A stretch of DNA of 64,000 nt, taken from Escherichia phage UPEC06. This document shows positions 38,162 to 64,000 of this stretch, in pieces. The translations under genes and the position numbers were made by a program. Location: sequence record MW250786; one strand, given 5' to 3'. The number at the start of each line of letters is the position of its first letter. Position 1 is the first letter of the stretch. The notes beneath the pieces are model-generated. The model made no database searches. It saw nothing but the letters and a program-made list of their open reading frames with translations, and was not told the origin of the DNA.

Positions 38162-38508
38162 TTTACCTCCATCATAAATACTTTAACTTTTCGTACCTCT
38201 AATCTTACTTTATTAGAGCCTTGAAGTCTATTTCTTTTTTCAATTGCGTCATTAATGTCGCCATAGAAGTAGTGATCCTTACCTATTGTTGGTATTCCAT
38301 TGCCGCCTTGCATAGCCAGTGTATACATTTCTTTTCCACCTTGCAACCCTTTTGATACTTTTTCTTCAAAATATTTATTGAATTGGGTTGGTGAAGTGTC
38401 AATTTCTACATCATCTTCCCATCCCATAACTTTATCCCAAAAACGGTCAATCTTGTCAAGAACTTTGTTACTAATCTTTTTAATCTTCTTCAACATAATC
38501 TTCCCCAT
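38158..38508 (-). CDS. hypothetical protein
   Basis: 116-aa basic ORF. Confidence 0.4.
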   Translation of the reverse strand: MGKIMLKKIKKISNKVLDKIDRFWDKVMGWEDDVEIDTSPTQFNKYFEEKVSKGLQGGKEMYTLAMQGGNGIPTIGKDHYFYGDINDAIEKRNRLQGSNKVRLEVRKVKVFMMEVK

Positions 38509-38968
38509 TATTTATTTGGATACCGAAACGATTTTCATTTGAAGAAAAGAAACCCATCTTCATCCGATCAATCTCGTGTTTCATAACTTCCTGCATCGTT
38601 AATTTAAGGATTTCTTTGTTTAATTTTGGCTTAACTTCACGGAGCTTGTCAAGAAGTTTTTCCATTTCTTCTTTTACTTTTTCTTCCTCATTTTCTATCT
38701 CTAATTGGTCCATTGCATCTTTACAAACACAGCAATGGCCCACAACTCTTAAAATATGATTTTGTATAGGTAATGCTTTTCTTCCACAATACCCACAAAC
38801 AATAGACCCACCGGAGTTTCGAGCATCCACTGTCAATGTAGGTTTGGCCCCTTCTGCCTGAGAATTCCAAGTCTTTTTGCCTTGATAATCAAACATAAAG
38901 AATTCGTAGGATCTTTCATCAACGTGATCTTCGAGCATATGTAAAGTTCTTGTATTGAAATGTTTCAT
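38480..38968 (-). CDS. hypothetical Cys-rich protein (possible zinc-binding)
   Basis: 162 aa with CGYCGRK...HCCVCK cluster; first gene of - strand block at divergent promoter region. Confidence 0.45.
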   Translation of the reverse strand: MKHFNTRTLHMLEDHVDERSYEFFMFDYQGKKTWNSQAEGAKPTLTVDARNSGGSIVCGYCGRKALPIQNHILRVVGHCCVCKDAMDQLEIENEEEKVKEEMEKLLDKLREVKPKLNKEILKLTMQEVMKHEIDRMKMGFFSSNENRFGIQINNGEDYVEED

Positions 38969-39004
38969 TTTTAAACCCTCGTTGTTTGTATGAGCTAACT
39001 ATAC

Positions 39005-39018
39005 GAGAACTTGAGAGG
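39005..39018. promoter_or_regulatory. GAGAACTTGAGAGG motif copy in divergent promoter region
   Basis: Same 14-mer as the iteron-like repeats at 47.94-48.11 kb; lies between divergent genes at 38968 and 39089. Confidence 0.4.
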
Positions 39019-39088
39019 AAGATCAATACTTGATTTGTATTTTATTTTCATTATACTGTGCACATCTAAAACAAGAAGGGGATAAGAA

Positions 39089-39652
39089 ATGAGTCAAGAT
39101 AAAGAGTTAGCCATTGCGATATCCGTAGCTGCTTCTGCCCATGTTGACCAAGTAGATAAAGGGGGGAATATCTATATTCTTCATCCTTTGCAGGTGATGC
39201 AAACATTGCAGCAAAAGGGAAGGGAAGATTTAATGGCAGCAGGAGTTTTGCATGATGTGATTGAAGATACTGAAATCACTATGGAACACCTCTTTAAAAA
39301 GGGGATTTCAGAAAGAACCTTAGTGATTGTCGATGCAGTGACAAAGAAACGTAAGCAATCTTCATCTGATTACCTAGAGGGGATTTTAGAGAGTGAGGGT
39401 GCTTGTCATGTTAAGCTTGCGGATCTTAAACACAACTTAGATATTCTGCGAACTTGTAGCACCACAGAAAAAGACTTGCAACGGGTCAGGAAGTATGTAA
39501 CAATGCACTTGTTGATTACGGAGATGGTTGATTGGTATGAAAGTATCGGAAGGTATCTCGATTATTGTGATTCTTTTGCCTATTGTAGCTATCTCGACGA
39601 ACGTAAAGAATTTGTTCAGAAACTTATTAAAAAATGGAAGGAGTTTAAATGA
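39089..39652 (+). CDS. HD-domain phosphohydrolase, SpoT/RelA-hydrolase-like (putative (p)ppGpp hydrolase)
   Basis: Signature AAGVLHDVIEDT with upstream His; 187 aa consistent with a stand-alone hydrolase domain. Confidence 0.55.
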   Translation: MSQDKELAIAISVAASAHVDQVDKGGNIYILHPLQVMQTLQQKGREDLMAAGVLHDVIEDTEITMEHLFKKGISERTLVIVDAVTKKRKQSSSDYLEGILESEGACHVKLADLKHNLDILRTCSTTEKDLQRVRKYVTMHLLITEMVDWYESIGRYLDYCDSFAYCSYLDERKEFVQKLIKKWKEFK

Positions 39653-40182
39653 AAAAGGTATTAAGTATCGAACCTTTCACAACAACATACTTTGACGATT
39701 TGGAACGTTACGGTGATTATGGGGTACAAGACGCTGATGGTTGGAAAGAATTCCCTGAAGAAACAAAAGGCCACATTACAAAGTTAGGTTGTAAGATTAA
39801 TGGATCTGAACCAAAAGGTGTTTACACCATGTTTTCTTTCCTTGAAGCTATGAATCCTACATACAAGGGGGATAGACAATTTGGTTTTTCTTTTGCATCA
39901 TTCCTTACTTGTAGTTGTGGTCATGGTGGTTGTGCGGGCTATCATGATAATGTGGTTATTCGACGTAAAAAGAATACCGTGATGGTCATGGGTAAAAAGG
40001 AAGATGGTTATGACGAAGGTGTTGTATTGACAGGTGAATCTGTTGTATACTTCGATAAAAAGCAGTGGGACGGTGTTCTAGAACACTACCTTAAACTCTT
40101 CAAAGAAAGTCCTGATGGTGTTTTTGAAGATGCGGGTTTTATGTTTACTGGTCGTTGGGGGACTAAAAATTTTTCAAAATAA
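39649..40182 (+). CDS. hypothetical protein
   Basis: 177-aa ORF, ATGA overlap with upstream gene. Confidence 0.5.
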   Translation: MKKVLSIEPFTTTYFDDLERYGDYGVQDADGWKEFPEETKGHITKLGCKINGSEPKGVYTMFSFLEAMNPTYKGDRQFGFSFASFLTCSCGHGGCAGYHDNVVIRRKKNTVMVMGKKEDGYDEGVVLTGESVVYFDKKQWDGVLEHYLKLFKESPDGVFEDAGFMFTGRWGTKNFSK

Positions 40183-40252
40183 TTTAAAAACTTGTTGACT
40201 TAAGAAATAGAAAAGATATACTTATCACATCAAAAACAAGAGGAGATATAAA

Positions 40253-41482
40253 ATGCAAGAAACTTATCAACGTATGGACCAAACCATGTTCAAAAAACGT
40301 ATCAGTGTTCGTGATATGGAATCACTGATTCGCCTGGGGGCTTCCATCGGAAAGACCGTATTCTTTTTTGGTGGTGCTGGTCTTGGTAAGTCTGAAAAAG
40401 TAAAACAGATCGCTGATTCCATGTTCCCACATCGTGTAGGTAATAACCTTTGTGATGTTCGTCTGTCGGATAAAGAGCCACAAGATATCGCAGGTATTCC
40501 GATTCCGATCTCTTATCCAGATCCGAAAACTGGTAAAGAAGTCACTCGTACCGTATACGCAGTTCCAAACTTTTGGCCTACTGATCCTGATTGGGAAGGT
40601 ATCGTGTTCCTGGATGAACTGCCAAATGCACCATTGGGCACTCAGCACTCTGCATATCAGGTTATTCTTGATCACGTTGCAGGTGAGCATAAGTTCCCGA
40701 AAGGTACTGTGTTTGTAGGTGCAGGTAACCGTGATACTGATGGAGCAGGGACTACTTCTATGCCTGGTCCATTGGTTAACCGTATGATCATTGCAGAAGT
40801 TGATTATAATCTGGATGTGTGGATCGAAGACTATGCGATTCCGTTCCGTCTGCACCCGAACATTATTGGTTTCTTGAAGCAGTTTCCAGAGCATTTCTAT
40901 ACTGGTGACGTAGAAAACCGAAGTACTCCGGTTTATTCATCTCCTCGTCAATGGAAAACAGCATCTGACATTCTGTACAAGTATGATGCGGGTGAGATTA
41001 ATGAATTTATCGCAGAGGTTGCTCTTGCAGGTACAGTTGGTGAAGGCTTGGAAGTACAGATCCTTGCTTATCACTTACGTGCTAAAGAACTTCCACCTAT
41101 TGAAGATATCTTCAGTGGTGCAGTGGAAGAACATAAACTTGATCGCAGCAAGAACGACCTTGTTTACGTACTGGCACAAACTGGCCTTCGTCGCATGGAA
41201 GATGAAGTGATGGATAATGATATGCCGGATGATAAGTTCCTTGAACGTGCAGGTAACTTCCTTACGTTCATGTACAATAACTATTATGCGAACAACAAGG
41301 ATACGATGATTGCTTTGATCTTGGGCGTGTTCCGTGGTCCAAACGATAAGCCATCTATCTTGACTGTTAACCCGAAACGTCAGAAAATGATTCCGCTTAT
41401 GCGTAAGAGTTGCCCGACTGTTTCTGCCGCAGTTATGGAATACATGACTCGCTATGGTCAACTGATTAAAGAATTCGAATAA
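40253..41482 (+). CDS. MoxR-like AAA+ ATPase (CobS/RavA-type)
   Basis: Walker A FFGGAGLGKS, Walker B IVFLDELPNA, sensor-like VFVGAGNR; RBS AGAGGAG. Confidence 0.65.
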   Translation: MQETYQRMDQTMFKKRISVRDMESLIRLGASIGKTVFFFGGAGLGKSEKVKQIADSMFPHRVGNNLCDVRLSDKEPQDIAGIPIPISYPDPKTGKEVTRTVYAVPNFWPTDPDWEGIVFLDELPNAPLGTQHSAYQVILDHVAGEHKFPKGTVFVGAGNRDTDGAGTTSMPGPLVNRMIIAEVDYNLDVWIEDYAIPFRLHPNIIGFLKQFPEHFYTGDVENRSTPVYSSPRQWKTASDILYKYDAGEINEFIAEVALAGTVGEGLEVQILAYHLRAKELPPIEDIFSGAVEEHKLDRSKNDLVYVLAQTGLRRMEDEVMDNDMPDDKFLERAGNFLTFMYNNYYANNKDTMIALILGVFRGPNDKPSILTVNPKRQKMIPLMRKSCPTVSAAVMEYMTRYGQLIKEFE

Positions 41483-41562
41483 TCTCTTGACAACGAAAAA
41501 CAGTTAACTTAATATAAGGGCATCTCGAAAGAGGTGTCCTTTTTTAATTTGGAGAAAATGAA

Positions 41563-43095
41563 ATGGCAAAACTGACGATTGAAGAAAGTAACATGATTGA
41601 AATGCAAGTCTCTGAAGCGGAACGTATCATTGAGGCTGCTAGTCTACAACTGATGCGTTTTAAACCCTTCTACGGGGTGATGCTTTCGTCTATGCCTGTT
41701 AAAAAGGCAACTGAGTGGTGCAGTACAATGGCGACTGATGGACGCAACCTATACTATCATCCAGAATTCATTGCAGGTATGACAGAAGAACGTAAAAAAT
41801 TAGTACTCGATCGACTTTCCAAATCTGAGTCCGATCCTAAAAAGCTTAAAGAGGCAACTGAATTTATTAATGTTTTTTATCGACGGAAGACCGCTCGTGA
41901 AGTTGCACTTATTCTTGAGCATGAATGTGATCATGTGATCTCTGATCACGCCTCTCGCGGTAAAGGATTTAATCATGAACTTTACAACATTGCAGCGGAT
42001 CATCGTATCAATACAACGGCTGTGCTTATTCACCAGAAAGGGGATGAGTTAGGTAAAGCCTGGTTCCCTGCCGGAGAGAGAACGGTATTTGATAAGAATG
42101 CTGAATTTGGATTTATGGCCTGGTCTTATTGTGACTTCCGATTCAAAGATATGTATACAGAGCAAATCTATGAAATCTTAAATAAAGAGCAGGACGATAA
42201 AGAAAAATCCAAAGGGGAAGGTTCTGGAAGTGGAAAAGGAGATGGTGAAGAAGGTGATCAAGGCCGTAAAGGTGTTGATCAGCACATGGACCCAAATGGT
42301 GATCCAGAAGATTCAGAAGATGATAGTATCGAAGATGCACTCGGAATCGACCGTAAAGCGAAACCTAAGCAAACAGCAGAGGAACGCCAATATAACGATG
42401 GGGTTATGCGTCGAGCCATTGAGAATGCCGTACAGGCAGCAGGAAGCGGTGCACCGGAAGATGCACGACGTTTTGTAGAGGCGGCAGGTAAACCAAAGAT
42501 TAACTATCTTCGTTTGTTGCGTAAAACTATTGAACGTCTGTTCAAAGATGATGTATCATATCGTCGTTTGTCACGCCGTAGTCACTCGTTAACTCGGACT
42601 CTCCGTAGCTCAGGTTACTTGTCTGGACGACAAACAATTGGTTTACCATCAAAGAATAAACAGAAGACTATCCGTGCAGGTGTTTTCTTTGATGTGTCGG
42701 GATCATTTAACGATGAACTGTTAAGACCAACAATGCGTGAGATTCGTGGATTGTGTAATCTTTACGACGAGTTTGAGGTCACGATGGCTTGCTGGTCAAC
42801 AAAGGTTGGTAACATTGAAACGTATACGAAGAAGAATGTGAATGAGATTGCTAACTATAAGATCAAGACCACATTTGGTACGGATGTTTCTTGTGTGTTT
42901 GAAGCATTAGATGAAATGAAAGACCCTATGGATCAGATCATCATCTATACTGACGGTTACTTTGCTGATGTATCCCAAAAGAAAGATTGGGCCAAAAAGT
43001 ATGGTAAGAATGTTCTTTGGATCATCCTGGGTCGTGGGTCTTCGTTCAATCCACCTTTTGGTAAAGCCATTGATTTTGACAAGTATCTTAAATAA
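41563..43095 (+). CDS. vWA-domain protein with N-terminal HExxH metallopeptidase-like motif (DUF2201-like MoxR partner)
   Basis: HExxH in ALILEHECDHVISDH; MIDAS-type DxSxS in VFFDVSGSF; acidic Gly/Glu/Asp-rich linker; directly downstream of AAA+ gene. Confidence 0.6.
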   Translation: MAKLTIEESNMIEMQVSEAERIIEAASLQLMRFKPFYGVMLSSMPVKKATEWCSTMATDGRNLYYHPEFIAGMTEERKKLVLDRLSKSESDPKKLKEATEFINVFYRRKTAREVALILEHECDHVISDHASRGKGFNHELYNIAADHRINTTAVLIHQKGDELGKAWFPAGERTVFDKNAEFGFMAWSYCDFRFKDMYTEQIYEILNKEQDDKEKSKGEGSGSGKGDGEEGDQGRKGVDQHMDPNGDPEDSEDDSIEDALGIDRKAKPKQTAEERQYNDGVMRRAIENAVQAAGSGAPEDARRFVEAAGKPKINYLRLLRKTIERLFKDDVSYRRLSRRSHSLTRTLRSSGYLSGRQTIGLPSKNKQKTIRAGVFFDVSGSFNDELLRPTMREIRGLCNLYDEFEVTMACWSTKVGNIETYTKKNVNEIANYKIKTTFGTDVSCVFEALDEMKDPMDQIIIYTDGYFADVSQKKDWAKKYGKNVLWIILGRGSSFNPPFGKAIDFDKYLK

Positions 43096-43104
43096 GGGGG
43101 ATCT

Positions 43105-43476
43105 TTGAGCGAGTATACTTACAAGTTATCAGTTGGTAGGCGTGGTGTAGTTATGACTATCAACATGATTAATGAAAGTGCGGAGGCTGTAAAATGGTGG
43201 GCCTCCACCTTTAACGGGAAAGGTTTTACTTTATCTCGCCATAAGATTGGATCAGGAAAGCCGATAGATCTTGTAAAGGAAGACACTTTCCTGTATCCTG
43301 ATCGTATTGCTGATGAAGATATTGATTTCCTGTCTGCTACGGTTGGTAGTCTGTTAGATGAGGAGCCAGATATTGTAAGGTTGCTCTCTTTGCTTACCGC
43401 AATGTGGTCAGCAGGTCATGATGAGGAAAGTATGCATACGATGGTAAGGAATACGTTGAGACGTTGGTCTAAGTAA
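43105..43476 (+). CDS. hypothetical protein
   Basis: 123-aa ORF; track start is TTG, alternative in-frame ATG at ~43153. Confidence 0.4.
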   Translation: MSEYTYKLSVGRRGVVMTINMINESAEAVKWWASTFNGKGFTLSRHKIGSGKPIDLVKEDTFLYPDRIADEDIDFLSATVGSLLDEEPDIVRLLSLLTAMWSAGHDEESMHTMVRNTLRRWSK

Positions 43477-43796
43477 CAACATTTCCTTTATGCCCATTTA
43501 GGCATACAATACTATATTAGATGATAAACCCCTCAACCTGCTCGGTTGCTTCGACGGGGTTTATATATCTATTAAAAAATTAACCACACTCACATTCGTT
43601 CGGTACTTAATTTTTTAAGTCACCACAAAATTGTGTTGACACCACAATCAAACAGGTGTAGAGTTAACAAGAGAAGGAAAGTTAATTGGATAAGTTTTAC
43701 ATATACTGTCTAACATTGGGATTGATCTTCATGATTGTTGGATCAGTGGGTAAAGTTTTACTCAATAGTTTTGGAATTTATTAAGAGGAGATCGTA

Positions 43797-44039
43797 ATGA
43801 GAGTACGTCAACATCGTGGTACATTGATCGAAAGTTTGAAAACTGTTAAACAGATTGAAGGTACAAAACAAGCTCTTGTGGATCATATCAACAAAGAGTT
43901 AGGTAAACCGTTTAACTTCTCTGTTGATTCGATCAGCATTGTGGAAAAAGGAGTTGATGAGCGTATCAACTGGAACAACCATCTGATCCTGATTGATGGA
44001 TTTGGTGTATTTGGTTATTGTGATCAACATCCTGTTTAA
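43797..44039 (+). CDS. hypothetical protein
   Basis: 80-aa ORF with AGGAG RBS. Confidence 0.45.
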   Translation: MRVRQHRGTLIESLKTVKQIEGTKQALVDHINKELGKPFNFSVDSISIVEKGVDERINWNNHLILIDGFGVFGYCDQHPV

Positions 44040-44159
44040 GAGGTGGTTATGGCTATTAAATGGTGGTTGTTTGTAGTTCCTGCAAATGATAATGCAGGCG
44101 GTGATGGTAAACGTGCAGTCGCACAAACCTATGTCTATGGTCGTCATTAAGGAGTTATT

Positions 44160-44567
44160 ATGGATGCTTTTTTGAGTATTGTGTTTGCACTGACAGTGGT
44201 TGATTGGGTATTTATCGGTATCTATCTACTCTGTATTCCTTTTGTGATCTGGTTTTACATTGACCTTTTGGCAGGTACTGGCAAAGTAACTGGAATGGAC
44301 TACTTCATGTTTGTTGTTGTGATTCTCATGGGGCCTTTAGCCTTGTTGTCTTTCCTTATTGCAAACATTGTGGTAAGAGGGGGCGCTATCAAACAAACTG
44401 TTCTTTTAAAGGTGAGTAGAACTGATATTGGTAAGAAGATCATTGTCTGGAACATTACACGTAAGCTTAAAAAGACCAATACCAAATGGGTTAATCCTTT
44501 AGAACGAGCCGTTCAGAAACGTCACAAAGTCTTATTGGAGAGAAAACATGGGAAACGAAATCCGTAA
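44160..44567 (+). CDS. membrane protein
   Basis: 135 aa, 3 hydrophobic helices then basic tail. Confidence 0.45.
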   Translation: MDAFLSIVFALTVVDWVFIGIYLLCIPFVIWFYIDLLAGTGKVTGMDYFMFVVVILMGPLALLSFLIANIVVRGGAIKQTVLLKVSRTDIGKKIIVWNITRKLKKTNTKWVNPLERAVQKRHKVLLERKHGKRNP

Positions 44568-44708
44568 AATCAAGTGGAAGTTTTGGGAATACGCATTGGT
44601 TGTCGCTGGATATCTTTTCGGCTACAATCATGAGGTATACTATGGCGTAAAGCATAATCGAAACATGGCGTACTTCGCGTGGAAGTTTCCAGAGCGTAAG
44701 GAAAAGAA

Positions 44709-45230
44709 ATGAAAGTCACAGAAAGCTTAGTTAAAAAGGTTCGAATAGAAGAACTCCAGGAAGAAAGGCTCGATCCTATCGAGGTTATCATTGAGAACTA
44801 TGATAATGGTAGAGGTAAGATCATAATCACCTCCGGCGGTGAGTCCTGGGTAGGCCAATGGAATGCGATGGGAGGGAGTGTAGAATCCTTTATCCAACGT
44901 GTCGATAATGACTACCTCATAGGGTGTATGGGGCGAGCACCTAAGTTCATTGAAGATAAAGATCAGGACCCTGTTTTCATTAAGAAGATGATCTTGAAGC
45001 AACGCCGGACCGATTCAATAACTAAAGGGCAGGCGAGATGGGCTTGGGATTATACGGAGACGTTTGCCCCTGACCGTGATCATATCCTTCATGGGGTTCC
45101 TTTTGCGCTTCAACCCCTGAGGGAGTTAGAAGAACCTTGGTATCTGGACTGGCCCACAAAAATCAATACAGATTATACTTATCAAAGTAAAATCCTGGAT
45201 GTTGTTCGTAAAGTAATAAAGCCAAATTAA
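44709..45230 (+). CDS. hypothetical protein
   Basis: 173-aa ORF with RBS. Confidence 0.5.
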   Translation: MKVTESLVKKVRIEELQEERLDPIEVIIENYDNGRGKIIITSGGESWVGQWNAMGGSVESFIQRVDNDYLIGCMGRAPKFIEDKDQDPVFIKKMILKQRRTDSITKGQARWAWDYTETFAPDRDHILHGVPFALQPLRELEEPWYLDWPTKINTDYTYQSKILDVVRKVIKPN

Positions 45231-45305
45231 TCACAAGAAGGGGTTGACGAGTGTCGCCCCTTGATTTAAACTTCAGTTATCGAAAGAAAGAGAGGAATCT
45301 AGATA

Positions 45306-45521
45306 ATGACTAAGCTTGTAACTTACGTGTTCGAAGGTGATGCTGTACCAACTGAATTTTTTGAAGATGTTTACAGCAATGATCGTGGAGTGGAACCTTT
45401 AAAGGTTTTACTTGTTGATGTTACCAACTATGGTGATGATATCGAAGTCACAGTGCAAGGAACAACCCAACAAGTCATTGATGAACGTATGAAGTATTGG
45501 GCACTGTTGCTGAAAAAATAA
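45306..45521 (+). CDS. hypothetical protein
   Basis: 71-aa acidic ORF with RBS. Confidence 0.4.
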   Translation: MTKLVTYVFEGDAVPTEFFEDVYSNDRGVEPLKVLLVDVTNYGDDIEVTVQGTTQQVIDERMKYWALLLKK

Positions 45522-45552
45522 AAAGTTATTTTAAATTACATAGGAGAAAGAA

Positions 45553-46173
45553 ATGGCTATCTATGCAAAACTGAAAGAAAGTAAGAAAAGTTATTTTATT
45601 TCAATGGACCCATCTAACCGACGTATGATTGAAAATCATGGTGATCGCTTCATTGTACGACCTTCCGAGAATAACGATTCTTACTTACGTCCGGTGGGTC
45701 CACGTATTGAGGGTCAGTTCTTAACATCCCGAGATATCGAAGAGTATTTTACATTCTTCCCTGAATGGTCAGCAGAGTCAGCAGAATACATCGTTAACCT
45801 AGCGATCCCAAGGGGTAGCGTTGCTATTGATGATCAGTATCTGCTGGGGGATAAATGGGGTGACTACAAGATCAAAACAAGTCATCCAAATATGTGGCGA
45901 CTGTATAACTCCGATAATCCTGACGATTATGTTATGCTTAAGCAAAGTAATTTGGAGAAATACTTCACCTTACAGGAAGATAGCTTAAAGAAAGCATTGG
46001 CTAAGTTTGACAATTACACACCTGCACCTGTAGAAAAAGAACAGGAAGTTGTAGATACGGATGTTTTTGAATTGAAGATTAAACGCACAGTAAGGGTTAA
46101 GGATGCAGAAATCACAGAGGACAATCTGGATCAGTTCATTGCACAGCTTACTAAACTGGTTAAAGGAGAATAA
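45553..46173 (+). CDS. hypothetical protein
   Basis: 206-aa ORF with AGGAGA RBS. Confidence 0.5.
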   Translation: MAIYAKLKESKKSYFISMDPSNRRMIENHGDRFIVRPSENNDSYLRPVGPRIEGQFLTSRDIEEYFTFFPEWSAESAEYIVNLAIPRGSVAIDDQYLLGDKWGDYKIKTSHPNMWRLYNSDNPDDYVMLKQSNLEKYFTLQEDSLKKALAKFDNYTPAPVEKEQEVVDTDVFELKIKRTVRVKDAEITEDNLDQFIAQLTKLVKGE

Positions 46174-46176
46174 AAG

Positions 46177-46491
46177 ATGATTATCGATCAAAGAACGCAA
46201 GTAGTTATTGACAAGACTTTCAGTGTACGTAAAAGTATCATTGCAGACATTAGTCTTGAGCGTATGACCGAAGAGGGTATTGATACTTCTGTAAACTACC
46301 CCTTGATGGAAGAAGACTTCCTACGTAAAATTATGAAACAGGGTTTTACCGACCATGTTCAGATAGAGACGAACAAAGATATGTGGTTAGTCTTTAAACT
46401 GTCTGCCGATACTGATCACGAACAAGAATTCAATGCGGCATTGGCCTGGATTCTTAAATACTGTGATGACAATGACCTAGAGGTAATGTAA
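46177..46491 (+). CDS. hypothetical protein
   Basis: 104-aa ORF, 3 nt after previous stop. Confidence 0.45.
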   Translation: MIIDQRTQVVIDKTFSVRKSIIADISLERMTEEGIDTSVNYPLMEEDFLRKIMKQGFTDHVQIETNKDMWLVFKLSADTDHEQEFNAALAWILKYCDDNDLEVM

Positions 46492-46718
46492 TGTACAAGC
46501 TTCCAAAGAACTTTCGATTCTATCGTGATCTGAAATTAAAGACTGTACTGTTTGTCGAGAATTTAGAGTTGGAGGAGTTTTATGGTTTTGAATGGTATGA
46601 AGGGGATATGGGAGAGATGAACCTCAAGAATGTTCTCGAATTTTGGGGCAATGATGATGGGGAAGGATACAGCCCCACTCCAAAACACGAGCTTTCCCTT
46701 GTTGAGATCAGAGACTAA
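46491..46718 (+). CDS. hypothetical protein
   Basis: 75-aa ORF, overlapping stop/start. Confidence 0.4.
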   Translation: MYKLPKNFRFYRDLKLKTVLFVENLELEEFYGFEWYEGDMGEMNLKNVLEFWGNDDGEGYSPTPKHELSLVEIRD

Positions 46719-46823
46719 CAAAATAAGGGGTCTAAACAGGCCCCTGTAAGCATAAACAAGTACAAGACGATAAATGACCTTACCAAAGATAAAAGGTCCT
46801 CACAAACGCATACAGGAGCTTAC

Positions 46824-47642
46824 ATGGCCTACCGTAAATTTGACCCACTGATCATTTATGAAGTTGTCCCAATGAGTATAGCCAACCCTCATGGTTTGCA
46901 ATCACCTACTCCACTTGATCATAAAACAATGATCAGGAATGCAGAGTACACTTTAAGAGATCTAGAGAATGAGGAGATTGAAAGTGCTGTGCATGGGTTG
47001 AAAGACCTGATCCGTGAACTTGATACGGATGATTCTGTTCAAGAATATATTGAAAAGTCAGAGGCACTAATCACGAAGTTTCATGAATACCGCACTAAGG
47101 TATCTCGTATTCTTGATGAAGCTTTTGATCCTTCATTAAAAGACCCGATAAAGGATGACAAAGCAATACTCTTGCTTAGTCAAATAGCTGACGCTACTGA
47201 CAACATGGACCCTGGTTTTGTAAGAGCTGATCATACCTGTGTAGATCAGTTTCCTTTAGCTTATCTTAAATCCAAAAAGGCATTCGGTAGTCTGGCTTTT
47301 GTCTGGGAGTATGAGAAAGATTCCCTTACTCGTTACATCAATCGGGTAGGTAAGAAAGATATTTCAGTTACATTGAACATCTTCTCTGACGGTTCTTTGA
47401 TGGTTCATAACAACTGGACAAAAGAAAGTATCCTCTTTGGTAAAGAAAGAGATCAGAAATTTAAACTGGTAAACTATATCCGTTTCGCAACAGAGGATAG
47501 TAAAATGGGTAAGTCATTTAAAGAGGAGGACTTTAAAACTTTCTTTGAAGACTGGCTTTCCCCAACAGAAGAAGAGATCCAACTATTCAAAGCTGTGAAT
47601 GGGGATGTTTCGTTCGACCTGTACACACTCTTTAACGAGTGA
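46824..47642 (+). CDS. hypothetical protein
   Basis: 272-aa ORF with AGGAG RBS; last gene before repeat region. Confidence 0.5.
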   Translation: MAYRKFDPLIIYEVVPMSIANPHGLQSPTPLDHKTMIRNAEYTLRDLENEEIESAVHGLKDLIRELDTDDSVQEYIEKSEALITKFHEYRTKVSRILDEAFDPSLKDPIKDDKAILLLSQIADATDNMDPGFVRADHTCVDQFPLAYLKSKKAFGSLAFVWEYEKDSLTRYINRVGKKDISVTLNIFSDGSLMVHNNWTKESILFGKERDQKFKLVNYIRFATEDSKMGKSFKEEDFKTFFEDWLSPTEEEIQLFKAVNGDVSFDLYTLFNE

Positions 47643-47770
47643 TATTTGTTCGCTGAAACAAATTCAAATTTCAGATCCAAAATATATTTGAGATATTTCC
47701 CTGTGATATTTGTTTCATGGGGAATTTTCAGATTTCAATTTGAAATTCTATTTGAGATAAATTTAAGACT
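47641..47770. repeat. short direct repeats (GATATTTGTT, AAATTTCAGAT, TATTTGAGATA, each x2)
   Basis: Interleaved direct repeats in AT-rich non-coding DNA; approx coords. Confidence 0.5.
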
Positions 47771-47938
47771 CCTGCCACCGTGCCCCCTCCATACTGTGTC
47801 ATTCCTGCATACCTGCACCACTAGATCAACTTAGTTGATGCCCCTTCTTACAGACTCACCCTCCAGATTCAATACGTTACTGTTCCAGTATACCTGTGAT
47901 ACAAAGCAAACATACGACACTAGTGACCAAAATAATTT

Positions 47939-48106
47939 GAGAACTTGAGGGGTTTTTCATTTTTAAGATCGTAACCTGAAAGCTGTTCACGAGAACTTGA
48001 GAGGTTTTTCGATACAGCGATTAGGAACTTGAGAGGTTTTTCATTTTTGAGTTTGCATTTGAAATTGAGAACTTGAGCTACAGGCCAGATACTTGAGGGG
48101 TTTTTC
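47939..48106. repeat. iteron-like direct repeats, 4 full and 1 partial copy of GAGAACTTGAGRGGTTTTTC
   Basis: Copies at ~47939, 47991, 48024, 48067 (partial), 48088 with irregular spacing. Confidence 0.65.
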
Positions 48107-48469
48107 AAATTTCAGTTTCATTTCAAAATTGAAAAATTTTTTATATGCACAAAAATATAGGGCTTGTCAAGGTCTTTGATAAGAAATTTTCAGGAGGTGA
48201 GAATTATTCTCATTTGCAGAATAACGGGCAGGGGTGGTGATTGCTTCGTGAAACCGTCCTCATCACCATGAATATATAATAGCACCGTTTTTGATTAGAA
48301 AGCAACAACATTTTAAAAATATTTTTCGGTAAATTTTGGGCGAGCTACCGGCGATCCACCTTACAACCTGGCGGCGATGCCTGGTATGTTAGCCCCGCCT
48401 TTACGCCGTGGGGATGGCGATTGTTTTCCTATGTAAGCATTATGGCCCCTGGCGGGGCCGTTGTCAACA

Positions 48470-48754
48470 TTATTTTTTATCTTCTTGCCAAGTAAGAACG
48501 CCTAACCAAAAATACACGTCGCCCTTAGCGTTCGGTGGTATCTTGCTTTCTTTCCCGCCAGCACACGCCCAAAGGTAACCATCGGTAAACGTATCAAGGT
48601 AGTCCATATCTTCCACCTTTCGATCCGCCAGGTTAAGGATAGTATTAACGTCTAAGCCTGTTGCGCTTGCTACCTGGTAGACCGTGCCACCTTGCCAGCC
48701 TAACGAGTGCATAAGATGCAAAGTAGTAGTAGTAGTAGTGGTGATGGTAGTCAT
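48470..48754 (-). CDS. hypothetical protein in locally GC-rich island
   Basis: 94-aa ORF; N-terminal poly-Thr encoded by (ACT)n-type repeat; only - strand ORF in this region. Confidence 0.4.
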   Translation of the reverse strand: MTTITTTTTTTLHLMHSLGWQGGTVYQVASATGLDVNTILNLADRKVEDMDYLDTFTDGYLWACAGGKESKIPPNAKGDVYFWLGVLTWQEDKK

Positions 48755-48947
48755 AGTATCGCCCTTTCTTCTGTTGTGCGCCCTGGTTGGCGCGGTAAAA
48801 AGACTATAAATGATCTTCCTTTATATAGCAAGGAAAAAGAAATTAAAAAAGATTAAAAATAATGTTGACGTAGTGAATCTGGTAGCGTAGTATTCATCTC
48901 ATCGAACGGCGACATGCCAACAAGTAAACAAATAAAAGGGCAACAAA

Positions 48948-62907: not shown

Positions 62908-62920
62908 GAGGTAAGACAAC

Positions 62921-62947
62921 AAAGGGCCGCTATTGCGGCCTTTATTA
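62921..62947 (+). terminator. Rho-independent terminator ending the small-ORF array
   Basis: AAAGGGCCGC-tatt-GCGGCCTTT hairpin plus TTTATTAT. Confidence 0.65.
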
Positions 62948-63151
62948 TATCCATCGGCGTGACTCTCCCAACTCTATTAATCCCCTCCCTCATTTGGATC
63001 ATCCTACTCTATCCAACCCTTCTAACTTACTTTACCCATCAATCTAATCAGCTTCCTGAATCTCTCCTATAAAAATCAAAACTAACCTGATAGCTTACCA
63101 CAACAAAACACACAAAGAAAGAACTATTTTGCCCACAAAGAAAGCAGTTTT

Positions 63152-63790
63152 AAAGAGATACCATTGCCAGAGTATGGAGGTGGCGCGACCGTAGGGAGCG
63201 ACACTATAAAACGAGTATACCCCTCCTACCGCTATGCGGTCATCGGTGATAACCGATAACATACTGTTATCTGTTCTCTTCGTTTCCTCGTTTTATAGTG
63301 TCTACTTATAGTAATCTTTTATCCTTTGTCAATACATTATCGAAGATAATATTGAATTATTTAATGCTTTGTTAGTAATTATTTATGCATGGATACTGAT
63401 TATGTATGCAATAAGGATGCAATGGGAAGGCCGTTAGTGTGACCACACAAAGAGGCTGTAGGGTACACAAAGAGGCCGTAAAAGGCTGTATTTGCCCACA
63501 GAATGAACAAGTAAGCAGGGCGGTACGCCAGTTTGCTAGACAAAACTCTCTTCTCTCTTCTCTCCCCAAATAAATTTTTTCTTGCTTTTATTGCCAGAGT
63601 ATGGCGGGGCGCTCAGGCTATTGATGGCCCTGATGGAGTCGCTCCTGCACAGTTGGGATAGTTCATCGTTGGATAGTCACAAGTTGGTATTATTCTTCCC
63701 ACTAGTTGGAACAGGCCAGAACTGGCGGGGCTTGGAGTCGCTCCACTTGTTGGGCGGAAGAAGGGCGCTTGCAGTGCGTATAAGTTGTAT
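63152..63790. repeat. dispersed imperfect repeats in terminal non-coding region
   Basis: ATTGCCAGAGTATGG at ~63152 and ~63590 with a variant GCCAGAACTGGCGGGG at ~63713; GGAGTCGCTCC x2; CACAAAGAGGCYGTA x2 at ~63445-63480. Confidence 0.4.
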
Positions 63791-64000
63791 TATGTTAAAT
63801 GCAGATCGAAATCGGTATTCTAAATCAGATTCAGAAGTCAATAGAAATCTTTAACTTTATTGTTGGGGTAGCACAACATTTTTCTTGACAAGTCGAATCA
63901 AAGATGTATTGCGGATTGAAAATAAATGAAGATAATGCTTGACTTCTTGGATATTTTGAAAACATCGGACCCCCTCTCCCTCCCCCACGGTCGCCGTGCC

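What the first reader, a model, noticed from the sequence alone, without database searches (positions are those of the whole stretch)
47641..48470. 830-bp non-coding hub with iteron-like direct repeats, with a copy in the divergent promoter region at 39.0 kb
Between the last + strand gene of the middle block (ends 47642) and the lone - strand ORF at 48470-48754 there is no ORF of 60 aa or more. The region holds 4 full and 1 partial copy of GAGAACTTGAGRGGTTTTTC (about 47939-48106, irregular spacing) plus a second set of short repeats at 47641-47770. The 14-mer GAGAACTTGAGAGG recurs once at ~39005 in the divergent promoter region between the two large blocks. This pattern fits a binding site for one regulator or initiator, and the 47.9-48.1 kb cluster is a candidate replication origin or transcriptional switch.
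Basis: seen in the sequence. Interest (0 to 1): 0.6.

Follow-up and report, generated by a model that had tools for sequence, protein, structure and literature searches.

The report
Conserved repeat-bearing control hub in rV5-like phages
An 830-base gene-free stretch of this E. coli phage carries four same-direction copies of a 16-base site, plus a fifth exact copy inside the promoter of the DNA-replication genes; the same layout recurs in over 300 related phages, so it is a real control region, most likely the replication origin, though that is unproven.

Summary
ACTTGAGRGGTTTTTC occurs four times on the + strand at 47943-48106, with none expected by chance. There is one partial copy. Genome-wide the 14-mer recurs only at 39005.

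The window is a Septuagintavirus (Vequintavirinae), about 94% identical to phages A5-4 and W70. The hub is not peculiar to it. At least ten genus-level lineages of rV5-, PVP-SE1-, CR3- and phi92-like phages keep the same module order:
- left tandem repeats;
- 3-4 direct repeats with lineage-specific, often palindromic cores and a shared GTTTTTC tail;
- an A+T-rich block;
- Fur-box-like palindromes;
- leftward sigma-70 promoters aimed into ORF-free DNA;
- a GC-rich structured element.

The 39005 copy lies in the 17-nt spacer of the promoter heading the replication-gene block (DNA polymerase, primase/helicase).

Best reading (about 0.4): a transcription-activated, iteron-type origin whose binding protein also acts on the replisome promoter. 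A pure transcriptional switch is nearly as likely (about 0.3).

Tested and not supported: a coding ORF, a tRNA or Rfam RNA, and DnaA boxes. A packaging or terminal-repeat site is unlikely but was judged only by analogy with phage BME3. No initiator protein was identified. GC skew is uninformative.

The parts
47639..47766 (+). Module A: two tandem ~64-bp units (GTGATATTTGTT ... ATTTGAGATA) that overlap the stop codon of the last + gene.
   Evidence: the repeat finder family D3. GTGATATTTGTT is found only at 47639 and 47703 in the window and the W70 remainder. GATATTT / ATTTGAGAT motifs sit at the same hub edge in CR3, V18, phi92 and phAPEC8.
47770..47935 (.). Module B: unique spacer, G-poor on the + strand (22 G, 54 C; skew -0.42).
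   Evidence: The skew is in the 1% tail of the window. It is seen weakly in V18 and PVP-SE1 and not in CR3 or phi92.
47939..47958 (+). Repeat R1: GAGAACTTGAGGGGTTTTTC
47991..48010 (+). Repeat R2: GAGAACTTGAGAGGTTTTTC. It is the copy most like the 39005 site (shared ACGAGAACTTGAGAGG....TC.ATAC).
48023..48042 (+). Repeat R3: AGGAACTTGAGAGGTTTTTC
48068..48079 (+). Partial repeat: GAGAACTTGAGC
48087..48106 (+). Repeat R4: AGATACTTGAGGGGTTTTTC
48100..48165 (.). A+T-rich block (82% A+T at 48100-48149) that includes the palindromic A/T tract GAAAAATTTTTT at 48131-48142.
   Evidence: z about 2.8, top 0.2-0.3% of the window, but not the extreme. The same GAAAAAATTTTT element ends every repeat unit in PVP-SE1, 4MG and K45PH128C2.
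48198..48212 (.). Perfect palindrome TGAGAATTATTCTCA, the local version of the Fur-box-like operator. A + promoter-like site TTGATA-17-GAGAAT (48176-48204) overlaps it.
   Evidence: It is the only perfect copy in the window and matches the E. coli Fur consensus at 14/19. Orthologous boxes in 4MG, phi92, V18 and phAPEC8 reach 15-16/19 and occur in clusters of up to 5.
48236..48267 (.). Conserved hairpin-forming segment (GGTGAT...ATCACC) between the palindrome and promoter P(-)1.
   Evidence: Alignment A2. This is part of the core conserved across about 150 phages (window 48198-48284).
48276..48305 (-). P(-)1: leftward promoter-like site TTGCTT-18-TATTAT. It matches 8/12 and falls below the scanner threshold in this clade.
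   Evidence: Read. At the same alignment columns, 6 of 11 phages have a 9/12 promoter.
48338..48425 (.). Module F: GC-rich conserved element (GAGCTACCGGCGATCCACC ... GTTAGCCCCGCC ... GGGGATGGCG) with stems that covary. It probably lies in the transcript from P(-)2.
   Evidence: 318 phage records match. Alifold on both strands shows an A-U<->G-C exchange at 5:5 and CCCC/GGGG<->CCAA/TTGG in A5-4. No Rfam family matches.
48439..48467 (-). P(-)2: strong leftward sigma-70 promoter TTGACA-17-CATAAT (11/12).
   Evidence: It is present at the same alignment columns with the same 17-18-nt spacer in 11 of 11 phages compared.
48470..48754 (-). Lone 94-aa '-' ORF (phrog_19316, homologue of phi92 gp224). 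It borders the hub but is probably not the repeat binder.
   Evidence: It is 76% identical to phi92 gp224 although the repeats of the two phages are unrelated. The AF2 model has pLDDT 90.7, is all-alpha, and has no fold match.
39005..39018 (+). Sixth site: exact 14-mer GAGAACTTGAGAGG inside the 17-nt spacer (39004-39020) of the leftward promoter TTGATC-17-TATAGT (39026->38998). That promoter heads the replication-gene block and stands back-to-back with the + promoter TTGATT-16-TATACT (39030-39057).
   Evidence: The block encodes DNA polymerase A, primase/helicase and a Dda/PIF1-like helicase. The site is kept in W70, A73, A5-4 and LTH01; W70, A73 and A5-4 differ from one another only at the position that also varies among hub copies, while LTH01 (GAGGAG) also changes the following base.

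Best explanation
The region is the local form of a control hub shared by rV5-like and phi92-like myoviruses. Its four and a half same-direction repeats are binding sites for a sequence-specific, probably phage-encoded, DNA-binding protein (inferred). They adjoin an A+T-rich, easily melted block. They also lie downstream of two conserved host-type promoters that fire leftwards into DNA with no gene to express (shown as sequence features). The most likely function is a replication origin of the iteron type that is opened or primed by this incoming transcription, as at lambda ori, the T7 primary origin or T4 oriF (inferred). A sixth, exact copy of the site sits between the -35 and -10 elements of the promoter for the DNA polymerase/primase-helicase block. 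The same protein would therefore also throttle expression of the replication genes, as plasmid Rep initiators repress their own promoters through an iteron copy (inferred). A palindrome just upstream of the repeats is Fur-box-like in sister genera and may let a host or phage repressor gate the transcription that enters the repeats (speculative for this phage).
For: Repeats are real, co-oriented and confined: 4 exact 16-mers versus 0 expected. Genome-wide there is only the hub plus 39005. The pentamer TTGAG occurs 10 times on the + strand and 0 times on the - strand in 528 bp, against 0.55 expected. Positional conservation with sequence turnover: every genus examined has 3-4 direct repeats at the same place, with cores such as GTACTCGATCGG (PVP-SE1, 4MG, V18), GGGTCTCGATCG (CR3), GTTCTCGATCGAG (K45PH128C2) and TTATTTAAAGTTTTT (phi92), and with a shared GTTTTTC / A-T-tract tail. 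The A+T-rich block is 82% A+T with z about 2.8. The leftward promoter TTGACA-17-CATAAT is conserved in 11/11 phages and a second one in 6/11. No '-' strand intrinsic terminator and no conserved ORF lie downstream. The 39005 copy lies in the spacer of the promoter of the replication block. It is maintained in four relatives; in three of them variation is confined to the degenerate repeat position. The region is not coding, not a tRNA and not a known RNA family.
Against: No replication data exist for any phage of these subfamilies in the literature I could search; the rV5 paper only labels the region 'non-coding'. GC skew switches at 38-40 kb with gene orientation and not at the hub. The A+T-rich block is matched by many early-region intergenic spacers. 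No initiator was found. The adjacent 272-aa protein is acidic and of unknown fold. The 94-aa ORF cannot explain the repeat specificity. The first gene behind the 39-kb promoter is a zinc-ribbon plus coiled-coil protein with no known relative. PVP-SE1 does not carry its own repeat core in its equivalent divergent promoter, so the operator copy is clade-specific. Repeat spacing of 32-84 bp is wider and less regular than in classical iteron origins.
Confidence: 0.4

Rival explanations
1. A pure transcriptional switch. The repeat array is an operator or decoy cluster for a phage regulator that times gene expression. The regulator represses the replication-block promoter at 39 kb. At the hub it controls or blocks the leftward transcripts, which would otherwise run antisense into the 39-47.6-kb + block. 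No role in replication initiation is involved.
For: The one site outside the hub is in a promoter spacer, the classic repressor position. The hub lies between the early block of small genes, each with its own sigma-70 promoter, and the middle block. It contains conserved promoters and an operator-like palindrome. Palindromic cores in other genera suit dimeric repressors.
Against: Four of the five hub copies do not overlap any promoter-like site on either strand (my reading with the criteria). An 830-bp ORF-free region with phased A/T tracts and 3-4 widely spaced sites is more than a simple operator needs. The promoter copy is absent from PVP-SE1 although the array is present.
Confidence: 0.3
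2. A non-coding RNA locus. The conserved leftward promoters make a long '-' strand RNA. Its 5' part is the GC-rich structured element, and its body carries GAAAAACCYCUCAAGUUCUC four times. The RNA would act as a sponge, an antisense RNA or a processed small RNA.
For: P(-)2 is conserved in 11/11 phages and points into ORF-free DNA. Module F shows covarying pairs. All repeats are on one strand.
Against: The repeat unit has no conserved hairpin. The cores differ between genera while only an A/T-rich tail is shared. There is no recognisable terminator and no Rfam match. The extra copy at 39005 sits in a promoter spacer, which argues for recognition as DNA.
Confidence: 0.1
3. A genome-entry checkpoint like the injection-stop region of phage T5. 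The hub lies at the inner border of the early-gene block. It would pause DNA transfer until early proteins are made, and the leftward host-type promoters would then help RNA polymerase draw in the rest of the genome, as in T7.
For: In the phi92-like phage BME3 the 342-bp terminal repeat lies about 12 kb (8% of the genome) beyond the hub, at the far end of the early block. The T5 stop region is likewise a conserved, untranslated maze of repeats at 7.9%. The window has a second large non-coding region at 62.9-64.0 kb that could hold the terminus. The promoters point from the early block into the remainder of the genome.
Against: The hub has no paired DnaA boxes; a single 8/9 match at about 48143 is not conserved in A5-4. 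It has no long inverted-repeat pair like T5 IRC/IRD. The termini of this clade are unknown, and some rV5-like phages were reported as circularly permuted. Two-step entry has never been reported for these phages.
Confidence: 0.07
4. A packaging site or physical genome end (pac site or direct terminal repeat boundary).
For: The LTH01 record is opened exactly inside the hub, at about window 48345. Klebsiella phage KPP-1 has a 514-bp terminal repeat in a large non-coding region with similar motifs.
Against: In BME3 the annotated terminal repeat is about 11 kb away from the hub. The KPP-1 repeat lies at a convergent gene junction, not at the hub position. Other records of the clade open elsewhere.
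Confidence: 0.03
5. A small protein gene on the '-' strand, as annotated in A5-4, A7_1, A73, W70 and LTH01 (79 aa).
For: An ORF is annotated in five relatives.
Against: The ORF is interrupted by a stop in the window. It starts at TTG without a ribosome-binding site. Repeat copies fall in two reading frames. It has no homologue outside the clade.
Confidence: 0.02

Closest known systems
Iteron-type origins with transcriptional activation (phage lambda ori; theta plasmids such as pSC101, F and P1 oriR)
   Same: Several co-oriented direct repeats lie next to an A+T-rich block. Transcription is directed towards the region. A further copy of the repeat sits in the promoter of replication genes, the analogue of Rep autoregulation.
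   Different: Spacing is 32-84 bp rather than about 20-22 bp. No initiator gene was found in cis. There are no conserved DnaA boxes. The operator copy controls a whole replisome operon and is clade-specific. No functional data exist.
Transcription-primed phage origins (T7 primary origin with tandem promoters plus an A+T-rich segment; T4 oriF/oriG promoter plus downstream unwinding element; ColE1 RNA II)
   Same: Tandem promoters fire into ORF-free, A+T-rich DNA. In this clade the transcript is G-rich, because the + strand is G-poor downstream.
   Different: The promoters are host sigma-70 type. A repeat array lies between the A+T-rich block and the G-poor segment. R-loop formation is untested, and the skew is not conserved in other genera.
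Phage T5 injection-stop (iss) untranslated repeat region
   Same: It is a large, conserved, ORF-free region dense in direct repeats and palindromes at the inner edge of the first-expressed gene block. In the relative BME3 the hub is about 8% of the genome from a terminal repeat.
   Different: The hub lacks the paired DnaA boxes and the long IRC/IRD inverted repeats. It is not inside a terminal repeat. Two-step entry is not known for these phages.
Fur operators of Enterobacteriaceae (GATAATGATAATCATTATC)
   Same: The palindrome next to the repeats aligns with boxes in sister genera that match the consensus at 15-16/19 and are clustered, overlapping a candidate promoter spacer.
   Different: The window's own box is a symmetric GAGAAT-N-ATTCTC variant that matches only 14/19, a score reached 14 times by chance-level sites in the window. 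Binding is untested.

Membership tests
Iteron-type replication origin | Three or more direct repeats in one orientation, clustered in non-coding DNA | tested here: met
   Four exact 16-mers plus one partial copy, all on the + strand, within 168 bp. Equivalent arrays occur in all genera examined.
Iteron-type replication origin | Adjacent A+T-rich DNA-unwinding element | tested here: inconclusive
   48100-48165 is 82% A+T with z about 2.8, but about a dozen other sites in the window are as unstable or more so.
Iteron-type replication origin | Cognate initiator protein, usually encoded nearby, that binds the repeats | tested here: not met
   No Rep, O or DnaA-like protein was found among the flanking genes or the first genes of the replication block by Pfam, PHROGs, PDB sequence search and two AF2 models with Foldseek. 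Binding cannot be tested here.
Iteron-type replication origin | Repeat copy acting as an operator in the promoter of replication genes | tested here: met
   The exact 14-mer lies in the 17-nt spacer of TTGATC-17-TATAGT, which heads the DNA polymerase / primase-helicase block. This is a sequence feature only. It is absent from PVP-SE1.
Iteron-type replication origin | Replication demonstrably starts there (marker frequency, 2D gels, autonomous replication) | not testable with these tools
   No read data are available. The literature search found no origin mapping for these subfamilies.
Iteron-type replication origin | Strand-composition switch at the origin | tested here: not met
   The cumulative GC skew minimum is at 38-40 kb, where gene orientation flips, and there is no change at 47.6-48.5 kb. 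The rV5 authors reached the same conclusion for rV5. Skew is dominated by transcription and is therefore weak evidence.
Transcription-primed origin (T7 / T4 oriF / ColE1 type) | Promoter(s) directed into ORF-free A+T-rich DNA | tested here: met
   P(-)2 matches 11/12 and is conserved in 11/11 phages. P(-)1 is found in 6/11. No '-' strand terminator and no conserved ORF lie downstream.
Transcription-primed origin (T7 / T4 oriF / ColE1 type) | Persistent RNA-DNA hybrid (G-rich transcript on a C-rich template) | tested here: inconclusive
   The + strand of 47770-47935 has skew -0.42, but this is not conserved in CR3 or phi92.
Fur operator | Match to the 19-bp Fur consensus or the 7-1-7 inverted repeat, overlapping a promoter | tested here: inconclusive
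   The window box matches 14/19, at background level. Orthologous boxes match 15-16/19 and occur in clusters of up to 5 in phi92, CR3, V18, 4MG and phAPEC8.
T5-type injection-stop region | Pairs of DnaA boxes and long inverted repeats, located at the end of the first-transferred segment | tested here: not met
   There is only one 8/9 DnaA-like site, and it is not conserved. No long inverted-repeat pair was found. A location relative to a terminus is known only for BME3, by analogy.
Terminal repeat / pac site | Coincides with physical genome ends | tested here: inconclusive
   The BME3 terminal repeat is 11 kb from its hub. The LTH01 record opens inside the hub. No reads are available for this clade.
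Protein-coding gene (A5-4 gp61-like) | Intact ORF conserved among relatives, with a start signal | tested here: not met
   There is a stop codon in the window, a TTG start and no RBS, and the repeats fall in two frames.
Known RNA families / tRNA | Covariance-model or tRNA match | tested here: not met
   ARAGORN found none. Rfam found nothing at the gathering threshold and only chance-level hits at E<=10.

The most novel reading that the evidence does not exclude
The hub is a genome-entry checkpoint outside the T5 family. The terminal early-gene block (about 8-10% of the genome) would enter first, and transfer would pause at the repeat array. The conserved leftward host-type promoters, gated by the Fur-box-like operator, would then let RNA polymerase pull in the rest. 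In that reading a virulent phage would couple completion of infection to early protein synthesis and possibly to host iron status.
Probability: 0.07. Interest if true: 0.85.

Novelty: new variant of a known kind. Interest (0 to 1): 0.5.

Why it matters
rV5-like and phi92-like myoviruses are among the most used broad-host-range candidates for therapy against E. coli, Salmonella, Klebsiella and Cronobacter. I found no origin mapping or description of their early-to-middle control in the searchable literature, and the rV5 genome paper simply marks this stretch 'non-coding'. Showing that one 0.8-1-kb module is conserved in order across more than 300 genomes gives a single, well-delimited target for experiments. 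The module holds lineage-specific repeat cores, conserved promoters aimed at ORF-free DNA, Fur-box-like operators and a structured GC-rich element. If it is the origin, it supplies the missing cis element for engineering and for replication studies of these phages. If the Fur-like boxes are functional, it would be a case of a strictly lytic phage family reading a host iron sensor.

Tried and rejected
- tRNA/tmRNA: none in the window or in nine related loci. The tRNA features annotated over the hub of K45PH128C2 are not reproduced.
- Rfam: no family matches.
- Coding ORF on the '-' strand: rejected.
- Terminal repeat or pac site: unlikely by analogy with BME3. The KPP-1 repeat lies in a different non-coding region.
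- DnaA boxes and GATC clustering: the single DnaA-like site is not conserved, and GATC is not enriched.
- GC skew: follows transcription only.
- Module B as an R-loop-prone segment: the skew is not conserved.
- Test for a repeat copy in the divergent promoter of another genus (PVP-SE1): negative.
- Repeat units as sigma-70 promoters on either strand: none fits except the 39005 site (reading against the criteria).
- Candidate binding proteins: the 272-aa neighbour, the 94-aa '-' ORF and the 162-aa zinc-ribbon protein gave no DNA-binding or initiator fold.
- Synteny with the mapped theta origin of ICP1: no comparable non-coding region near 60 kb in the reference record, and the coordinates are not transferable.
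- Literature: nothing on this region for rV5, phi92, PVP-SE1 or Septuagintavirus. The PVP-SE1 paper is not held.
Full report
**What is in the sequence.**

The stretch 47643-48469 lies between the stop codon of a 272-aa + strand gene and the stop codon of a lone 94-aa - strand ORF. It holds four + strand copies of ACTTGAGRGGTTTTTC at 47943, 47995, 48027 and 48091. These are the only exact copies in 64 kb, and the dinucleotide-preserving shuffles give no sign that such a cluster arises by chance.
- With the four bases before them, two copies are exact 20-mers.
- The other two differ only in those four leading bases.
- A half copy, GAGAACTTGAGC, lies at 48068.

Start-to-start spacing is 52, 32 and 64 bp. 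The pentamer TTGAG occurs ten times on the + strand of 47643-48170 and never on the - strand, against about 0.55 expected. At the left edge two ~64-bp units are repeated in tandem (47639-47766). Their 12-mer GTGATATTTGTT occurs nowhere else.

- Two mechanical 62-aa TTG-start ORFs exist in the region.
- Relatives annotate a 79-aa - strand CDS over the repeats.

That ORF is broken by a stop codon in the window. It has no ATG or ribosome-binding site, and it reads the repeats in two different frames. I treat it as spurious. No tRNA and no Rfam family matches.

**Where the window comes from.**

The region is 90-97% identical to Escherichia phages A5-4, A7_1, A73, W70 and LTH01. One flanking protein is 100% identical to a protein of phage UPEC06. 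These phages form the genus Septuagintavirus in the Vequintavirinae. The window contains, in order:
- the end of the tail-fibre block;
- a 29-kb - strand replication block (DNA polymerase A, split primase/helicase, Dda/PIF1-like helicase, methyltransferase);
- an 8.6-kb + block (39089-47642);
- the hub;
- a + block of small early-type genes, each with its own promoter.

**The hub is a conserved module, not a local oddity.**

BLAST with the right part of the hub finds 318 phage records in Vequintavirinae and Stephanstirmvirinae. A core at window 48198-48284 is found in about 150 records. I read the equivalent non-coding regions of phi92, phAPEC8, EC_OE_11, PVP-SE1, 4MG, CR3, F1M1E, CB7, K45PH128C2 and V18. 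All of them are 0.75-1.0 kb, free of credible ORFs, and built in the same order:
1. GATATTT / ATTTGAGAT repeats at the left edge.
2. A unique spacer.
3. Three or four direct repeats spaced 63-84 bp apart.
4. One to five palindromes of the form TGA(G/T)AATNATT(C/A)TCA.
5. A short GC hairpin.
6. A - strand promoter.
7. A GC-rich element of about 90 nt (replaced in V18 by a second palindrome/hairpin copy).
8. A second - strand promoter.

The direct repeats change their core from lineage to lineage:

| Lineage | Repeat core |
|---|---|
| PVP-SE1 / 4MG / V18 | GTACTCGATC.. |
| CR3 / F1M1E | GGGTCTCGATCG |
| K45PH128C2 | GTTCTCGATCGAG |
| phi92 / phAPEC8 | TTATTTAAAGTTTTT |
| This window | GAGAACTTGAGRGG |

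All lineages keep a GTTTTTC / A-T-tract tail. In several genera each unit also ends in a palindromic GAAAAAATTTTT element. Some cores are perfect 10-12-bp palindromes. Conserved position with lineage-specific, partly palindromic cores is what one expects of sites that co-evolve with a sequence-specific protein. That is inference; no binding data exist.

**Promoters.**

The scanner finds TTGACA-17-CATAAT (11/12) on the - strand at 48467->48439. I applied the same criteria to an alignment of eleven phages. A - strand promoter occupies the same columns, with a 17-18-nt spacer, in all eleven. A second one, 175 columns further left, is present in six. In the window that second site is weaker (TTGCTT-18-TATTAT, 48305->48276, 8/12). 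No + strand site passes the criteria in any phage. A TTGAAT-18-CAGAAT arrangement with the palindrome in its spacer is conserved outside this clade, and the window has TTGATA-17-GAGAAT overlapping the palindrome. No - strand intrinsic terminator is predicted between 49500 and 47000. Host-type promoters therefore send transcription leftwards through the GC-rich element, the palindrome, the 82% A+T block (48100-48165) and the repeats, with nothing to translate.

**The sixth site.**

GAGAACTTGAGAGG recurs exactly at 39005-39018. At up to two mismatches it occurs nowhere else in the window or in the remaining 74 kb of W70. It lies in the divergent region between the two large blocks. More precisely, it fills the 17-nt spacer (39004-39020) of the - strand promoter TTGATC-17-TATAGT, which heads the replication block. 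That promoter stands back-to-back with the + strand promoter TTGATT-16-TATACT. The similarity to hub copy R2 extends beyond the 14-mer (ACGAGAACTTGAGAGG....TC.ATAC). The site is retained in W70, A73, A5-4 and LTH01. W70, A73 and A5-4 differ from one another only at the position that is also degenerate among hub copies; LTH01 also changes the following base. The whole spacer is about 94% conserved, so this is weak evidence. PVP-SE1 does not carry its own repeat core in its equivalent promoter region, so this link is specific to the clade.

**How it most likely works.**

*Shown:*
- a co-oriented repeat array next to an A+T-rich block;
- conserved promoters reading into it;
- one repeat copy in the promoter of the replisome genes.

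*Inferred:*
- one protein recognises all six sites;
- at the hub it assembles on the array while incoming transcription opens or primes the adjacent A+T-rich DNA;
- at 39 kb it limits replisome gene expression.

This is the logic of iteron replicons (Rep binds both the origin and its own promoter) combined with the transcriptional activation known for lambda ori, the T7 primary origin and T4 oriF. Those comparisons rest on my knowledge of those systems. I give this reading about 0.4.

*Evidence against:*
- GC skew turns at 38-40 kb with gene orientation and not at the hub, as the rV5 authors also found for rV5.
- The A+T block is not the least stable site in the window.
- Repeat spacing is wide and irregular.
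- No initiator was identified.

*Candidate proteins examined:*
- The acidic 272-aa neighbour is syntenic with CR3 gp127, but its function is unknown.
- The 94-aa ORF is 76% identical to phi92 gp224 although the two phages have unrelated repeats. It therefore cannot set the specificity. Its confident all-alpha model has no fold match.
- The first gene behind the 39-kb promoter encodes a 162-aa protein with four invariant cysteines, a beta zinc-ribbon-like domain and long helices. It also has no known relative.

**Rivals.**

1. A purely transcriptional switch (about 0.3) explains the promoter-spacer copy best. It does not explain why the hub copies avoid promoters, or why so much structured non-coding DNA is conserved.
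2. A long - strand non-coding RNA (about 0.1) fits the promoters and the covarying stems of the GC-rich element. It does not fit the lineage-specific cores or the DNA-level copy at 39 kb.
3. A T5-like entry checkpoint (about 0.07) is suggested by geometry. In BME3 the 342-bp terminal repeat lies about 12 kb beyond the hub, at the far end of the early block. The T5 stop signal is also a conserved untranslated repeat maze, at 7.9% of the genome. The hub, however, lacks the DnaA-box pairs and long inverted repeats, and the termini of this clade are unknown.
4. A pac or terminal-repeat site (about 0.03) is contradicted by BME3. The only support is that the LTH01 record happens to open at about 48345.

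**The palindrome.**

In 4MG, phi92, phAPEC8 and V18 the boxes match the E. coli Fur consensus at 16 of 19 positions. They are clustered, with four or five in 110 bp of phi92. The window's single box is a symmetric GAGAAT-T-ATTCTC variant. It scores only 14/19, a level reached by 14 sites in the window. I therefore record Fur control as plausible for the family and unproven for this phage.

**Novelty and verdict.**

I found no description of this region beyond the label 'non-coding' in the rV5 paper. The kind of element, an iteron-bearing control or origin region, is well known. What is new is the combination seen here and its conservation across two subfamilies. The function remains to be shown by marker-frequency sequencing, binding assays and transcription-start mapping.

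Noticed in passing
window 48338-48425 (also L002 3005-3085, L007 1645-1722, L009 2725-2802): A GC-rich element of about 90 nt is conserved in 318 phage records and lies between the two leftward promoters. Its stems covary (A-U<->G-C at 5:5; CCCC/GGGG<->CCAA/TTGG in A5-4/A7_1, which have swapped the central part). The arrangement CCCC..CGCC..GGGG..GGCG could form a pseudoknot. No Rfam family matches, and the transcribed strand is unresolved: G.U pairs favour the + strand, while the conserved promoter favours the - strand.
   Followed up: partly
L002 2760-2876 (phi92); L009 2482-2603 (CR3); L012 1496-1520 and 1626-1656 (V18); L015 1355-1380 (4MG): Clusters of strong Fur-box-like sites (up to 16/19 to GATAATGATAATCATTATC, four or five in tandem in phi92) occur in the control hub of strictly lytic phages. 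This suggests host iron status is read by these phages. I found no literature on it.
   Followed up: partly
window 62908-64000: A second large non-coding region follows a strong terminator-like hairpin (62924-62947). It has an extremely G-poor stretch (62963-63128, skew -0.74, the lowest in the window) and internal repeats (ATTGCCAGAGTATGG at about 63166 and 63592; CACAAAGAGGC twice near 63447-63470). By analogy with BME3 and KPP-1 this may be where the terminal repeat or physical ends lie.
   Followed up: no
window 48463-48486 and 48846-48869: A 24-nt inverted repeat (92% complementary) brackets the 94-aa ORF. Each arm is the A/T-rich upstream element plus the TTGAC -35 box of an outward-facing promoter (P(-)2 leftwards, the first early promoter rightwards). 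The ORF therefore sits in a symmetric promoter cassette.
   Followed up: partly
window 48718-48754: The 5' end of the 94-aa ORF is a trinucleotide run (GTA GTA GTA ... on the + strand) that encodes a poly-threonine N-terminus (MTTITTTTTTT). Annotated lengths in relatives differ (80, 88 and 94 aa), so the tract or the chosen start codon may be polymorphic.
   Followed up: no
window 38480-38968: The first gene of the replication block encodes a 162-aa protein with invariant C58, C61, C80 and C82. It has 86 homologues in the representative library. A confident AF2 model (pLDDT 91) shows a small beta zinc-ribbon-like domain followed by two long helices. It has no Pfam family and no PDB fold match. 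It is a candidate DNA-binding regulator sitting directly behind the promoter that carries the repeat copy.
   Followed up: partly
L013 1337-1490 and 1957-2032 (Klebsiella phage K45PH128C2, OY978796.1): The record annotates tRNA-Met, tRNA-Ile and tRNA-Lys over the hub (Fur-like box, hairpin, promoter). ARAGORN finds no tRNA there, so the features look misplaced.
   Followed up: yes
L008 1-162 (Salmonella phage RUS_R7, PQ002170.1); LTH01 record start (L003 end = window ~48345): Two related records are opened inside the hub. RUS_R7 also carries an 'attL' repeat_region over the Fur-like box and is filed under Demerecviridae, although it is PVP-SE1-like. These are probably annotation artefacts, but the break points could reflect assembly behaviour at a repeat or a real end.
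   Followed up: no
(hit tables): About 20 records named 'Campylobacter phage' (MG0656xx, host C. jejuni) carry this Enterobacteriaceae-phage hub at 70-87% identity. Their host labels look doubtful.
   Followed up: no
L017 1880-2700 (Klebsiella phage KPP-1 non-coding region holding the reported 514-bp terminal repeat): This separate non-coding region also contains several Fur-box-like sites (up to 16/19) and the TCTTTACAAA motif seen next to the hub promoters of other genera. The same regulatory words are therefore reused at more than one control region in these phages.
   Followed up: no
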